NCBI GenBank assembly: GCA_036867785.1 | Contig: CP145421.1 | Location: 868,001 to 932,000, forward strand | Direction of reading: 5' to 3' | Length of the DNA: 64,000 bases | From: Plasmodiophora brassicae | Taxonomy: Eukaryota | In this document: positions 47,690 through 50,137 of the stretch, piece by piece | Position numbering within the stretch: position 1 is the first letter of the stretch | Layout of the letters: each line of letters starts with the position of its first letter | Program-made: the position numbers and the translations under genes | The notes under the pieces: generated by a model | The model's input: the letters and a program-made list of their open reading frames with translations, nothing else | The model's database searches: none | Told to the model about the DNA's origin: nothing

Positions 47690-50137
47690 ATGCAGCACCT
47701 GGCCGTCGTCGTCTGCGCGAGGCGGTCGTGGTGCCATGGCGCGCGCCGGACGATGATGCAGGCGACGGGCGTGCAACGGGCGCGCTCAGCGCCTGATCGC
47801 GACGACCAGCAGCGGGCGCGGATCGACGAGTTCCGGCGCGCGCCGTCCGTCCCGCTGGCGTTCCGCATCATCAAGCAGGACAGCGACGTCGAACGCGTCT
47901 GGTCCGTGTTCCAGCAGGTCCTGGGCGCACGGGCGATGCGCCCGCGGGCGCCGTTCTTCCAGTCCATGATGACGTTCTGCCGACGGCGGCTGCCGGCGAA
48001 GGCGCCGGACGTGTTCGATGCGGCCGTTGCGCGCGGCATCCCCAGCGACGAGCTGTTCGGGTCGCTGATCGGCATCTGCTGCGGCACGAACCCGCCCATG
48101 CTGCAGGAGCTGCTGGACCGGTACGTCAGGTGCGGGCCGCACACGCTGGACACCATGTTCCGTGTCGCGCACGTGTGCCGCGCGTCCGGGCGACCCGCGT
48201 CCGCGTTGTTCCTCGTCGACGAGGCCGCCCGGTTCAACGCCGACCTACCCGAGAAGCTCCTGTCCATGTTTGCCGCGTGCTGCGCCGAGGCCGATTCGGA
48301 GGTCCAGGCCGCCGACCGCGCCCAGCAACTCCTCGACCTGATTCGCGCCCGCCGGATAACGCCCCCCGACAACCGTCAGCTGTTCGGCAACCTCGTCAAG
48401 CCGCTCATCGCCCATCGCCGGTTCGAGGCGGCGATCGACGTGCTGTCGCTGATGGACAGCATCGACCTGCCGCCCAGCGTGCACCTGTACACGCAGCTGC
48501 TGGCCGGGCTGGCCAGTGCCGACCGCGCCCAACAGGGGTTCGCCGTGTTCCGCGCCATGGTCGACCGGGACGTCGACGTGAGCGACCGCATGGTGGCCAG
48601 CCTGGTCGCCGCCTGCGGGCGCTGCGCGACCCTGCCGCCGGTCGAGACCCTGCACCGGTTCGCTGTCGACCGGCGCATGCTCGGCAACGACTTCATCATC
48701 TGCTCGTTGGTGTCCGCGTACGACCAGTGCAATGCGCTGGACGCCGCCGAGCGCGTGTTCCAGGAGCGATGCGACCGGCCGGGACCTGGCCCCGACCCGC
48801 GCACGCTGGCCGCCATGATCCGCGCGTACGGCCGCCATGGCCGCCTGTCGGACGCCGCCCGCGTCTTCGACCTGGCGCCGGTCGGTGATGATCCCGACAT
48901 CTGGAACGGGTTCACGTGCACGCTGGCGAAGGCCGACCGGCTGCCCGAGGGCCTCAGCGCGCTGCGGGCGATGCGGGCGCGGCAAGTGCCGGCCGACCCG
49001 ACTACGGTCGCCTGCCTGGTCGCCGCCTGCGGTCGCTGTGCCGAGTTGCACGCAATGGCCAGCCTCCATCAGCAGGCGCAGGCCGACGGTCTGATGACGA
49101 ACGCGGTGATCTCGGCGCTCATCTACGCCTATGCGCATTGCGGCCAGCTGGAGGCGGCCGAGCGCGTCTTCCAGGGCGTCGCCCGCCCCGACATGATCGT
49201 CCTGACCGCCATGATCGCCGCCTACGGCCACCATGGGCTGGTGGCGAAGGCGTTCGCCACGTACGACCGGCTGAAATCGTCCGGGGAACCGGCCGACGAG
49301 CGGACGCTGGCGTCGCTGCTGACCGCCTGCAGCCACGTCGGCGAGGTGGGCCGTGCCGAGCGCACCGCCCTCGAGTTCAAGTCGGCCTGGGGCGTCGGCC
49401 TCGAGTCGCCCTACGCCCGCAACTGCATGATCGACCTGTACGGGCGCAGCGGCAACCTGAACGAAGCCGAGCGGCTGGCGTCGGCGTCGGCCGCCGACGT
49501 CGTCGCCTGGATGTCGGTCCTGGCCGCCTGCCGCCAGCACGGGGACGTGCCGCGCGCCGAACGCGTCTTCGCCATCATCCAGGCGATGGACCTGCCGGCG
49601 CACCTGCTGTCGCATGTCGCGTCGGCGTACGTCCTCATGGGCAACGTCTACACGGGCGTGGGGCGATACGCGGACGCCAGGCGCCTGCGCGACGAGATGG
49701 ACGCCCTGGGCATCTGCAAGATCCCCGGGCGGACGTCCCTCATCCTGCCCGGCCAGGCGGCGATGCACTTCCTCAGCGGCGACGACAGGTACCGTGCCGA
49801 CGCCGCCCTGCGGGAGACACACGCGCGGATGATGCGCGACCTGGCCCAGCACGGGTACTGCCCCGACGTGGCCGTCGTCGTCAAGGAGACGGCGTCCGTG
49901 TCCGACGCGAAGCAGTCGGTCTGCCTGCACAGCGAGAAGCTGGCGATCGCGTACGCGCTCAAGACGCTGCCGCCGGGCGCGCCCGTCCACGCCGTGAAGA
50001 ACCTGCGCGTCTGCCCGGACTGCCACGAGGCCACCAAGGCGCTGTCGGCGATCTACCGCCGCGACATCTACATCCGGGACGCCAACCGCCACCATCACTT
50101 CCGCGACGGCCAGTGCTCGTGCGGCGACTACTGGTAA
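47690..50137 (+). CDS. Pentatricopeptide repeat protein with E and DYW cytidine-deaminase domain; intronless
   Basis: Tandem PPR motifs (ALIYAYAHCGQLEAAERVF, TAMIAAYGHHG, SLLTACSHVG, CMIDLYGRSGNL); E domain WMSVLAACRQHG...YVLMGNVY; PG box KIPGRTSL; GYCPD; HSEKLAIAY; KNLRVCPDCH; HHFRDGQCSCGDYW-stop. Confidence 0.96.
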   Translation: MQHLAVVVCARRSWCHGARRTMMQATGVQRARSAPDRDDQQRARIDEFRRAPSVPLAFRIIKQDSDVERVWSVFQQVLGARAMRPRAPFFQSMMTFCRRRLPAKAPDVFDAAVARGIPSDELFGSLIGICCGTNPPMLQELLDRYVRCGPHTLDTMFRVAHVCRASGRPASALFLVDEAARFNADLPEKLLSMFAACCAEADSEVQAADRAQQLLDLIRARRITPPDNRQLFGNLVKPLIAHRRFEAAIDVLSLMDSIDLPPSVHLYTQLLAGLASADRAQQGFAVFRAMVDRDVDVSDRMVASLVAACGRCATLPPVETLHRFAVDRRMLGNDFIICSLVSAYDQCNALDAAERVFQERCDRPGPGPDPRTLAAMIRAYGRHGRLSDAARVFDLAPVGDDPDIWNGFTCTLAKADRLPEGLSALRAMRARQVPADPTTVACLVAACGRCAELHAMASLHQQAQADGLMTNAVISALIYAYAHCGQLEAAERVFQGVARPDMIVLTAMIAAYGHHGLVAKAFATYDRLKSSGEPADERTLASLLTACSHVGEVGRAERTALEFKSAWGVGLESPYARNCMIDLYGRSGNLNEAERLASASAADVVAWMSVLAACRQHGDVPRAERVFAIIQAMDLPAHLLSHVASAYVLMGNVYTGVGRYADARRLRDEMDALGICKIPGRTSLILPGQAAMHFLSGDDRYRADAALRETHARMMRDLAQHGYCPDVAVVVKETASVSDAKQSVCLHSEKLAIAYALKTLPPGAPVHAVKNLRVCPDCHEATKALSAIYRRDIYIRDANRHHHFRDGQCSCGDYW

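What the first reader, a model, noticed from the sequence alone, without database searches (positions are those of the whole stretch)
47690..50137. Intact plant-type PPR-E-DYW RNA-editing deaminase in a non-plant flagellated eukaryote
Seen in sequence: an intronless ~815-aa ORF in an intron-rich region, with an Arg-rich, acid-free N-terminus (MQHLAVVVCARRSWCHGARR), a PPR array, E domain, PG box, complete zinc/catalytic motifs HSEKLA and CPDCH, and a terminal DYW. Established: PLS-E-DYW proteins are the site-specific C-to-U editors of land-plant organelles and occur only sporadically elsewhere (e.g. Naegleria). Inference: this protist may run its own mitochondrial C-to-U editing, possibly gained by horizontal transfer. 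If it is a plant parasite, the protein could instead act on host organellar RNA. The usual SHP motif is replaced (GDDRYRAD), which may change activity.
Basis: partly seen in the sequence, partly recalled or inferred. Interest (0 to 1): 0.9.

Follow-up and report, generated by a model that had tools for sequence, protein, structure and literature searches.

The report
Plant-type RNA editor in clubroot parasite
An intact, transcribed gene for a plant-style RNA-editing enzyme (PPR-E-DYW) lies in what is almost certainly the clubroot parasite Plasmodiophora brassicae, as one of at least 31 such genes, which predicts C-to-U RNA editing in the parasite's mitochondria that I could not find reported.

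Summary
Window 47690-50137 (+) is an intronless 815-aa ORF with a PLS-type PPR array, E1/E2 motifs and a complete DYW deaminase domain (Pfam DYW_deaminase 8e-32; synthetic PPR-DYW 9kfx 3.8e-100). Of 24 annotated catalytic, zinc, RNA-contact and interface residues, 23 are identical. The organism is almost certainly Plasmodiophora brassicae, a plant parasite. The gene is native: GC3 is 0.94, like its neighbours. Spliced transcript contigs from 4 runs of 4 studies cover it unspliced. It is one of at least 31 DYW paralogs, 18 of them catalytically intact. With 8 further P. brassicae-like and 2 unnamed metagenome proteins they form one clade (100/100), apart from plant sequences, with no resolvable donor. 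The missing "SHP" is lineage-wide and is not a zinc ligand. A roughly 220-aa N-terminal PPR-like module is clade-specific. Best reading (0.65): a mitochondrial, site-specific C-to-U editing factor. Editing itself could not be tested here. The idea that it acts on host organelles has no support. A 2026 survey already counts 31 DYW domains in Rhizaria, so this is a new member of a known kind that offers an easily tested prediction.

The parts
47553..50189 (+). Transcribed region of the DYW gene (outermost limits seen in transcript contigs)
   Evidence: contigs cover 47693-50189 (X1, 0 differences), 47659-50108 (X14, 12 differences), 47553-50176 (X12, 17 differences, 1 gap) and three pieces over 47856-50176 (X4). 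No canonical intron joint lies inside.
47690..50137 (+). Coding sequence, 815 codons plus TAA stop, single exon
47690..47794 (+). Presequence-like N-terminus (aa 1-35): Arg-rich, no acidic residue
   Evidence: composition; pLDDT is below 50 for aa 1-33, with a predicted helix at 2-24. Mitochondrial targeting is inferred, not predicted by a dedicated tool.
47825..48478 (+). Clade-specific N-module (aa 46-263), about six divergent PPR-like helical hairpins
   Evidence: present in 30 of 30 other named paralogs, median 44% identity; matches only phytomyxid-type proteins (106 of 315 session proteins; no plant or Balamuthia sequence); no Pfam family when scanned alone. PPR-like by language-model features (0.95); helix pairs, pLDDT above 94.
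48479..49498 (+). PLS-type PPR array (aa 264-603): P1-L1-S1-(S-like)-P1-L1-S1-P2-L2-S2
   Evidence: scan with the consensus motifs of 9kfx; alignment to 9kfx and to PLS9-PPR 5iww.
49499..49720 (+). E1 (aa 604-637, followed by a 6-aa insert) and E2 (aa 644-677) motifs
   Evidence: scores 76 and 69, the highest of the scan. (E_motif 4.9e-07). RNA-contact residues R615, N652, R667 and K677 are conserved.
49721..50134 (+). DYW cytidine-deaminase domain (aa 678-815)
49787..49795 (+). R700-Y701-R702, replacing the plant S-H-P
   Evidence: alignment and codons AGG TAC CGT; the replacement is family-wide; paralog P0017 has DDRYRSD.
49928..50023 (+). Catalytic centre: H747, S748, E749 ... L772, R773, C775, C778 (Zn1 ligands and catalytic Glu)
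   Evidence: identical to H542, S543, E544, L567, R568, C570 and C573 of 9kfx. H747 invariant; E749, C775 and C778 at least 90% conserved.
50024..50134 (+). Structural zinc site and DYW motif: H779, H802, C809, C811, D813, Y814, W815
   Evidence: (ligand definition). H779, H802, C809, C811 and W815 are invariant in 55 sequences.

Best explanation
This is a nuclear gene of Plasmodiophora brassicae for a mitochondrial, site-specific C-to-U RNA-editing factor of the plant PLS-E-DYW type. Inferred course: the mRNA (unspliced, about 2.5 kb) is translated in the cytosol. The Arg-rich N-terminus (about aa 1-35) directs import into the mitochondrion, the only organelle genome this plastid-less parasite has. 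The ten PLS motifs plus E1/E2 (aa 264-677) bind one RNA strand just 5' of a target cytidine. The DYW domain (aa 678-815) deaminates that cytidine using Zn1 (H747, C775, C778) and the catalytic E749, and is stabilised by a second zinc (H779, H802, C809, C811). The gene belongs to a lineage-specific family of at least 31 paralogs. All share an extra N-terminal PPR-like module (aa 46-263), which probably serves a common rather than site-specific role. Shown here: the gene's identity, intactness, transcription, native status and family structure. Inferred: mitochondrial location, the deamination itself and the targets.
For: Domain identity. Layout P1-L1-S1...P2-L2-S2-E1-E2-DYW. 23 of 24 residues named as zinc ligands, catalytic base, base-0 contacts, S2/E1/E2 RNA contacts or PPR-DYW interface in the 9kfx and OTP86 papers are identical: with definitions. 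AlphaFold2 model: mean pLDDT 92.5, pTM 0.83. Foldseek top hit is the RNA-bound editing factor 9kfx_A, E 8.1e-27, TM 0.70 on the target. Transcription: contigs in 4 of 4 runs laid (4 studies) show spliced neighbours, one poly-A end, zero depth over 54041-54607, and cover the gene with ends near 47553-47693 and 50108-50189. 20 runs of 11 studies hold the stretch. Native gene: GC3 0.936 against 0.93, 0.85 and 0.85 in neighbours. N-termini are Arg-rich and acid-poor in 11 of 13 paralogs examined; the other two are a partial model and a truncated model. Family: 31 named clusters, 18 of 31 with HxE and CxxC intact and 39 of 39 with the Zn2 histidine. Precedent in the same rhizarian subgroup (Endomyxa): paradinids have PPR-DYW proteins together with mitochondrial C-to-U editing (passages of PMC11946409).
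Against: No editing site has been seen. The P. brassicae mitogenome paper used transcriptome data for annotation, and in the passages I read it reports no editing. No targeting predictor was available, so the mitochondrial location rests on composition only. 13 of 31 paralogs have lost a catalytic residue, so family members can persist without deaminase activity. Two lineage-wide departures from plant DYW domains, SHP to RYR and interface F596 to H801, have unknown effects. A strain variant (P0135/P0136) differs at 7 of 815 residues, while the transcript contigs differ at only 12-17 nucleotides. That is no clear sign of purifying selection within the species, although none of the 7 touches the 24 functional residues.
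Confidence: 0.65

Rival explanations
1. It is a mitochondrial RNA-binding PPR protein with a role other than editing, such as intron splicing, transcript end formation, stabilisation or cleavage. The DYW domain would be kept for structure, RNA binding or nuclease activity.
For: The P. brassicae mitogenome is 114,663 bp and intron-rich, with unusual splice sites, which would need many RNA factors. 13 of 31 paralogs lack a catalytic residue yet keep the structural zinc site. DYW-less relatives with the same N-module exist (P0011-P0016). No editing is reported in the passages read.
Against: This particular copy keeps every catalytic, zinc and base-contact residue tested, 23 of 24, and the full P2-L2-S2-E1-E2-DYW end that positions the target C in 9kfx. 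That is hard to explain without deamination.
Confidence: 0.22
2. It is a decaying or functionless family member that is transcribed but no longer under selection.
For: The strain variant differs at 7 amino acids, while the transcript contigs differ at about 12-17 nucleotides, so the ratio is not clearly below neutral. Many paralogs are degenerate.
Against: It has an open 815-codon frame and all functional residues are intact. Five of the 7 changes fall in aa 36-82 and none in a functional residue. It is 64-66% identical to paralog P0017 in the DYW domain. It is transcribed in all 4 runs laid.
Confidence: 0.05
3. It is a secreted effector that enters host cells and edits host plastid or mitochondrial RNA.
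For: The organism lives inside plant cells. The protein is of the plant type. One preprint reports night-time induction of host PPR genes in clubroot, but it concerns Arabidopsis genes only and does not mention the parasite's PPR family.
Against: There is no signal-peptide-like N-terminus: the longest hydrophobic run is 7 residues and is followed at once by RR. The family's N-termini are Arg-rich presequence-like stretches. At least 31 paralogs plus DYW-less relatives look like a housekeeping organellar toolkit.
Confidence: 0.03
4. It is plant DNA contaminating or mis-joined into the assembly.
For: None beyond its plant-type architecture.
Against: GC3 is 0.936, like the flanking genes. It is only 40-47% identical to the best plant DYW regions. 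A 100/100 branch separates the clade from plants. An X12 contig joins it to the spliced neighbouring gene.
Confidence: 0.01

Closest known systems
Land-plant PLS-E-DYW organellar C-to-U editing factors (structures: consensus PPR-DYW 9kfx, OTP86 DYW 7o4e/7o4f, DYW1 7w86)
   Same: The same order P1-L1-S1...P2-L2-S2-E1-E2-DYW. 23 of 24 functional residues are identical. Foldseek top hit is 9kfx. It ends in DYW.
   Different: Only 40-47% identical in the E-DYW region. SHP is replaced by RYR and interface F by H. There is a 6-aa insert between E1 and E2. An extra clade-specific N-module of about 220 aa is absent from every plant sequence fetched. The host organism is a rhizarian parasite without plastids.
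PPR-DYW proteins of paradinids (Ascetosporea, Endomyxa, Rhizaria), reported with mitochondrial C-to-U and A-to-I editing (PMC11946409; passages read)
   Same: The same rhizarian subgroup (Endomyxa), parasites, DYW domain with H, E and CxxC, predicted mitochondrial.
   Different: Paradinids have 1-3 copies and are said to share a 2-residue deletion with fungal DYW domains. I had no paradinid sequence, so I could test neither that deletion nor kinship. Here the family has at least 31 copies.
DYW-type PPR proteins of Heterolobosea (Naegleria gruberi, Acrasis kona) with a few mitochondrial C-to-U sites (Knoop and Rudinger 2010 and Rudinger et al. 2011, as cited; PMC4202320 seen in search listings only)
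   Same: A non-plant protist with plant-type DYW proteins. This is the precedent that such proteins go together with mitochondrial C-to-U editing.
   Different: A different supergroup. No heterolobosean sequence was among my fetched hits, so the relationship was not tested. I recall, and did not check, that those families have about ten members.
DYW expansion in bdelloid rotifers and the survey count of 31 DYW domains in Rhizaria (PMC13386178; section 7 read)
   Same: Non-plant DYW families read as old transfers from plants. The count of 31 for Rhizaria equals my count of named P. brassicae clusters, which may or may not be the same set.
   Different: The main text names no rhizarian species and gives no analysis of them. 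The species are in supplementary tables S9-S11, which I could not open.

Membership tests
PLS-class PPR-E-DYW RNA editing factor | PLS-type repeat array ending in the special P2-L2-S2 triplet | tested here: met
   P1 264, L1 299, S1 334, S-like 370, P1 402, L1 437, S1 471, P2 502 (score 47), L2 537 (45), S2 574 (48); aa 473-815 align to 277-612 of 9kfx.
PLS-class PPR-E-DYW RNA editing factor | E1 and E2 motifs between the PPR array and the deaminase | tested here: met
   Pfam E_motif 4.9e-07. E1 score 76, E2 score 69. R615, N652, R667 and K677 are conserved.
PLS-class PPR-E-DYW RNA editing factor | DYW deaminase domain with PG box and the catalytic signature HxE...CxxC | tested here: met
   PF14432 8e-32 over the full profile. 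P679 G680, H747 S748 E749, C775, C778.
PLS-class PPR-E-DYW RNA editing factor | Second (structural) zinc site: His after CxxC, His 7 residues before CxC, and the CxC | tested here: met
   Definition. H779, H802, C809 and C811. All four are invariant in 55 aligned sequences.
PLS-class PPR-E-DYW RNA editing factor | C-terminal D-Y-W tripeptide | tested here: met
PLS-class PPR-E-DYW RNA editing factor | Cytidine-deaminase fold with inserted gating region, docked on the P2-L2-S2 motifs | tested here: met
   Prediction only; pLDDT 92.5; strands 681-685, 692-695, 766-770, 793-796, 801-805; helices 705-720, 748-759, 776-788; top hit 9kfx_A, E 8.1e-27.
PLS-class PPR-E-DYW RNA editing factor | Plant-conserved 'SHP' at the start of helix 1 (conserved in plants, not catalytic) | tested here: not met
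   RYR instead of SHP; all 7 plant or consensus rows have HP there (6 as SHP, one as THP), against 1 of 39 family members with His. It is not a zinc ligand.
PLS-class PPR-E-DYW RNA editing factor | Targeting to a DNA-containing organelle | tested here: inconclusive
   11 R/K and no acidic residue before position 36; aa 1-33 have low confidence. No targeting predictor was available.
PLS-class PPR-E-DYW RNA editing factor | C-to-U differences between organellar DNA and RNA at sites matching the PPR array | not testable with these tools
   No genome is held for the window. No mitochondrial sequence was reachable. The one read-laying run was used.
PLS-class PPR-E-DYW RNA editing factor | Cytidine deaminase activity | not testable with these tools
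   This needs a heterologous editing assay.
Phytomyxid-type DYW family (defined here) | Shared N-module (aa 46-263) ahead of the PLS array, and membership of the 100/100 clade | tested here: met

The most novel reading that the evidence does not exclude
Plasmodiophora brassicae runs a large plant-type editing system, with at least 31 DYW proteins (18 catalytically intact, the rest perhaps specificity factors served in trans), on its 114-kb intron-rich mitochondrial genome. There would then be tens of unrecognised C-to-U sites, and the published mitochondrial gene models would need revision. The clade-specific N-module shared by all members would act as a built-in common docking or helper module, taking the place of the separate helper proteins that plants use. 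This would be the first plant-type editing system described in a major crop pathogen. Because the proteins are parasite-specific and probably essential for respiration, they would also be of practical interest.
Probability: 0.4. Interest if true: 0.7.

Novelty: new member of a known kind. Interest (0 to 1): 0.55.

Why it matters
PPR-DYW editing factors are the hallmark of land-plant organelles. Outside plants they are patchy, and functional evidence is scarce. Here a complete, transcribed copy belongs to a family of at least 31 in an obligate intracellular plant parasite of great agricultural cost. That size is far above the 1-3 reported for paradinids. The prediction is sharp and cheap to test: public RNA and DNA data of infected roots should show RNA-specific C-to-U changes in the parasite's mitochondrial transcripts. 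A positive result would add a second editing lineage within Endomyxa and would correct the mitochondrial annotation. It would also give a natural series of intact and degenerate DYW domains, and a new N-terminal module, for studying how editing systems expand. A negative result would be instructive too, because intact DYW domains would then be doing something else.

Tried and rejected
no genome is held for the window, so I counted paralogs through protein databases, not a genome scan.

earlier notes of this scan held nothing.

no RNA holder is listed on record. The runs are marked 'RNA?' as a guess. I treat them as transcript assemblies only because of the spliced joints, the poly-A end and the empty intergenic bins.

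joints inside the ORF (47980>49316, 49344>50114, 49573>49915, 49939>50106, and 43055>48419) have sides of only 20-25 nt and non-canonical ends. I rejected them as introns and read them as cross-matches to paralog transcripts. The variant table was cut at 47590 (86 rows not shown), so no synonymous versus non-synonymous count was possible.

the 848-aa model starts at a TTG and was rejected.

I hoped the extra length of P0017 (1235 aa) would match a neighbouring gene and show synteny. It is all PPR repeats, so it gave no synteny information.

I had recalled that the SHP histidine binds the second zinc. One search shows this is wrong.

One search used the wrong column for the second-zinc histidine, so its 'Zn2 intact 16' figure is void. 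One search corrects it by spacing: 39 of 39.

One search crashed on a format error and was rerun.

A rough reading of PPR positions 5 and last (P1 T/S, P1 N/D, S1 S/D, P2 T/D, S2 N/ambiguous) with the plant PPR code, which I recalled and did not check, gives only a weak motif (about U-x-G-G-x-U at -9 to -4). With no mitogenome to scan, I did not use it.

the N-module search found only P. brassicae (8 of 3506 candidates passed). This word-based search is insensitive, so it does not show that other phytomyxids lack the module.

the 22 letters that all four runs carry between 51517 and 52069 are not in the window. This is unexplained.

Literature searches for prior work. 'Plasmodiophora'+'DYW' gave 2 papers, both about host plants. 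'Plasmodiophora brassicae'+'mitochondrial genome'+'RNA editing' gave 11 papers; in the 3 I opened the mention was incidental, and the rest I saw as listings only. 'pentatricopeptide'+Spongospora/Polymyxa/Plasmodiophora gave none about the parasite's PPRs. 'Plasmodiophora'+'PPR'+'RNA editing'+'mitochondria' gave 4 papers; the relevant one is about host genes.
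Full report
**What is there.**

Window 47690-50137 (+) is one open frame of 815 codons from the first ATG to a TAA, ending in CSCGDYW. Pfam finds the DYW deaminase family over its whole profile (E 8e-32, aa 722-815), PPR families (6.2e-28 and others) and the E motif (4.9e-07). By sequence the best solved relative is the synthetic consensus PPR-DYW editing factor 9kfx (3.8e-100). 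The DYW domains of DYW1 (7w86, 2.3e-26) and OTP86 (7o4e, 5.4e-23) also match. The 848-aa database form of the same protein only adds 33 residues from a TTG at 47591, which is a prokaryote-style gene call. No ATG lies between 47553 and 47689, and the paralogs align from about the same start.

**Which organism, and is the gene native.**

No genome is held for the window. The exact 815-aa protein is in NCBI on a contig of 1,123,131 bp (its name is masked because it is the window's own). A named Plasmodiophora brassicae DYW protein (P0161) has the same longest-contig length.

Of the 28 other clusters that I looked up, 26 carry a P. brassicae name and 2 (ENA metagenome) carry none. I therefore take the window to be P. 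brassicae, a phytomyxid (Rhizaria, Endomyxa) and an obligate parasite of crucifers. That its zoospores are flagellated is recalled, not tested.

- The gene's third-position GC is 0.936, like the flanking genes (0.93, 0.85, 0.85).
- Twenty runs from 11 studies hold at least 63% of the sampled words of 45000-53000.
- I laid four of these 20 runs, from four studies and four organism labels.
- Their contigs are spliced transcripts. Seven introns of 56-69 nt with CT..AC ends are removed from the minus-strand neighbour (44545-46931) in all four. Further introns are removed at 56511-56572 and 57499-57558. One run shows a poly-T loose end. The bin 54041-54607 has zero depth in all four.
- The DYW gene is covered without a gap: X1 47693-50189 (2498 nt, 0 differences), X14 47659-50108 (12 differences), X12 47553-50176 (17 differences, 1 gap), and X4 in three pieces.

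So the gene is transcribed, has a single exon, and is physically linked to intron-bearing parasite genes. Contamination is excluded for practical purposes.

**Anatomy.**

I scanned the protein with the motif units of the designed consensus protein. From residue 264 this gives: P1, L1, S1, an S-like motif, P1, L1, S1, P2, L2, S2, E1 (plus a 6-residue insert), E2 and DYW.

I mapped the residues that the two structure papers name. Those for OTP86 I took from passages. Those for 9kfx I took from sections 12 and 13 and from passages. The result is 23 of 24 identical.

| Role | Residues in the window protein |
|---|---|
| Catalytic zinc ligands | H747, C775, C778 |
| Catalytic base | E749 |
| Base-0 contacts | S748, L772 |
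| Second-zinc ligands | H779, H802, C809, C811 |
| Salt-bridge pair | K783, D813 |
| C-terminal residues | Y814, W815 |
| Interface residues | R773, R796, R800, H803 |
| S2/E1/E2 RNA contacts | R586, R615, N652, R667, K677 |

The one change is interface F596 to H801.

AlphaFold2 with a 55-sequence alignment gives mean pLDDT 92.5 and pTM 0.83, with only residues 1-33 below 50. Foldseek ranks 9kfx_A first (E 8.1e-27, TM 0.70 on the target).

**The SHP question.**

The plant S-H-P is R-Y-R here. I had recalled that this histidine binds the second zinc. The OTP86 paper shows otherwise: Zn2 is bound by H924, H947, C954 and C956.

The replacement is also not private to this gene. Only 1 of 39 family members has His in that column, whereas all 7 plant or consensus rows have HP there (6 as SHP, one as THP). 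The closest paralog, P0017, reads DDRYRSD. It is a lineage signature of unknown effect, not a lesion.

**The family.**

The word-based searches and an exhaustive HMMER search of 1.84 billion representatives (13,529 hits at E up to 0.001) give 31 distinct clusters that are named P. brassicae or, for the window's own gene, masked.

- HxE and CxxC are intact in 18 of the 31 named clusters and in 2 of the 8 unlabelled ones.
- 13 named clusters have lost a catalytic residue.
- All 39 keep the second-zinc histidine.

The window protein is among the fully canonical ones.

A region-by-region comparison with the 30 other named paralogs gives these median identities:

| Region | Residues | Median identity |
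|---|---|---|
| N-terminal module | 46-263 | 44% |
| PLS array | 264-603 | 38% |
| E1/E2 | 604-677 | 47% |
| DYW | 678-815 | 48% |

- The N-terminal module is found in all 30, and it also occurs in DYW-less relatives (P0011-P0016).
- Scanned alone, it hits no Pfam family.
- It looks PPR-like to a protein language model (0.95).
- It is modelled as about six helical hairpins.
- Among the 315 proteins fetched, it matches only phytomyxid-type proteins: 101 strong and 5 partial hits, including the two unnamed metagenome proteins, and no plant or Balamuthia sequence.

**Origin.**

I built a careful maximum-likelihood tree of the last 175 residues from 88 rows:

- 31 named P. brassicae sequences,
- 8 P. 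brassicae-like sequences,
- 2 metagenome sequences,
- 35 named plant sequences chosen from the 120 listed,
- Balamuthia,
- 11 unnamed sequences.

No heterolobosean, fungal, rotifer or paradinid sequence was available.

The tree puts the 39 P. brassicae-type rows on one side of a branch (UFBoot 99 / SH-aLRT 85). It then adds the metagenome proteins P0176 (99/92) and P0231. The branch separating all 41 from the rest has support 100/100 and length 0.61. The bootstrap had not fully settled (correlation 0.966).

Where this clade attaches among plants is unresolved (22/69). This fits one old acquisition, or old vertical descent, followed by expansion inside the lineage. It excludes a recent gain from a crucifer host. 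No donor can be named.

**What is in print.**

- A 2026 survey counts 31 DYW domains in Rhizaria and reads non-plant DYW clusters as transfers from plants. I read section 7. The species are in supplementary tables that I could not open.
- Paradinids, also in Endomyxa, have 1-3 PPR-DYW proteins together with mitochondrial C-to-U and A-to-I editing (passages).
- The P. brassicae mitogenome paper mentions neither PPR proteins nor editing in the passages found. It reports 9 of 32 genes with non-ATG starts and unusual splice sites.
- A clubroot night-transcriptome preprint discusses host PPR genes only.
- My four searches found no paper that links the parasite's own DYW family to editing.

**Verdict.**

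The gene is a genuine, native, expressed and catalytically complete PLS-E-DYW protein.

The most likely function is site-specific C-to-U editing of mitochondrial transcripts (0.65). A non-editing RNA role is the main rival (0.22). Decay (0.05), host targeting (0.03) and contamination (0.01) are unlikely.

The decisive comparison of mitochondrial RNA with DNA could not be run here, but it is simple with public data. I rate the finding as a new member of a known kind, with a clade-specific N-terminal module as its most original feature, and give it an interest of 0.55.

Noticed in passing
P. brassicae paralogs (proteins P0003, P0140, P0142, P0144, P0147, P0149, P0150, P0153, P0154, P0156, P0158, P0162, P0163): 13 of the 31 named DYW paralogs have lost the catalytic Glu, the Zn1 His or a CxxC cysteine, yet all keep the structural zinc site. 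This resembles plant factors that depend on a DYW domain supplied in trans.
   Followed up: partly
window 47825-48478 (aa 46-263) and the same region of all paralogs: A clade-specific N-terminal module of about six divergent PPR-like hairpins is better conserved among paralogs (median 44%) than the RNA-reading PLS array (38%). It is also present in DYW-less relatives.
   Followed up: partly
proteins P0176 and P0231 (ENA metagenome, unnamed): Two unnamed metagenome proteins, one with a lower Ala/Arg and higher Lys/Asn/Ile make-up, branch next to the P. brassicae family and carry the N-module (29-31% identity). The family therefore exists in at least one other, unidentified organism.
   Followed up: partly
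window 44545-47553 (-): The head-to-head neighbour gene has seven very short introns (56-69 nt) and no Pfam match in its 613-aa ORF part. One X12 contig runs from it into the DYW gene, so the two transcription units nearly abut.
   Followed up: no
window 51517-52069: In all four runs a high-depth contig joins 51517 to 52069 with the same 22 letters in between. These letters do not occur anywhere in the window at up to 2 mismatches. This is unexplained; it may be a related transcript from elsewhere in the genome.
   Followed up: partly
window 47467-50266 (-): Antisense ORFs of 266, 616 and 673 aa overlap the DYW gene. They have no support and are what 71% GC produces.
   Followed up: no
database records of P0003, P0279, P0283, P0155, P0157: Some NCBI records label these proteins '(mitochondrion)' although they lie on contigs of 1.2-2.1 Mb. 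This is a record label, not evidence of where the protein or gene resides.
   Followed up: no
window 50793-51959 (-), 56066-57610 (-), 42668-43987 (+), 5559-7478 (+): Other genes in the window: an ion-transport or polycystin-like channel, ribose-5-phosphate isomerase A, a glycosyltransferase family 61 protein and a cyclic-nucleotide-binding protein.
   Followed up: no
proteins P0135, P0136 against P0001: A strain variant of the window protein differs at 7 residues: D36V, Q75E, V77I, L78A, A82V, T559A and S743A. Five of them cluster just behind the presequence.
   Followed up: partly
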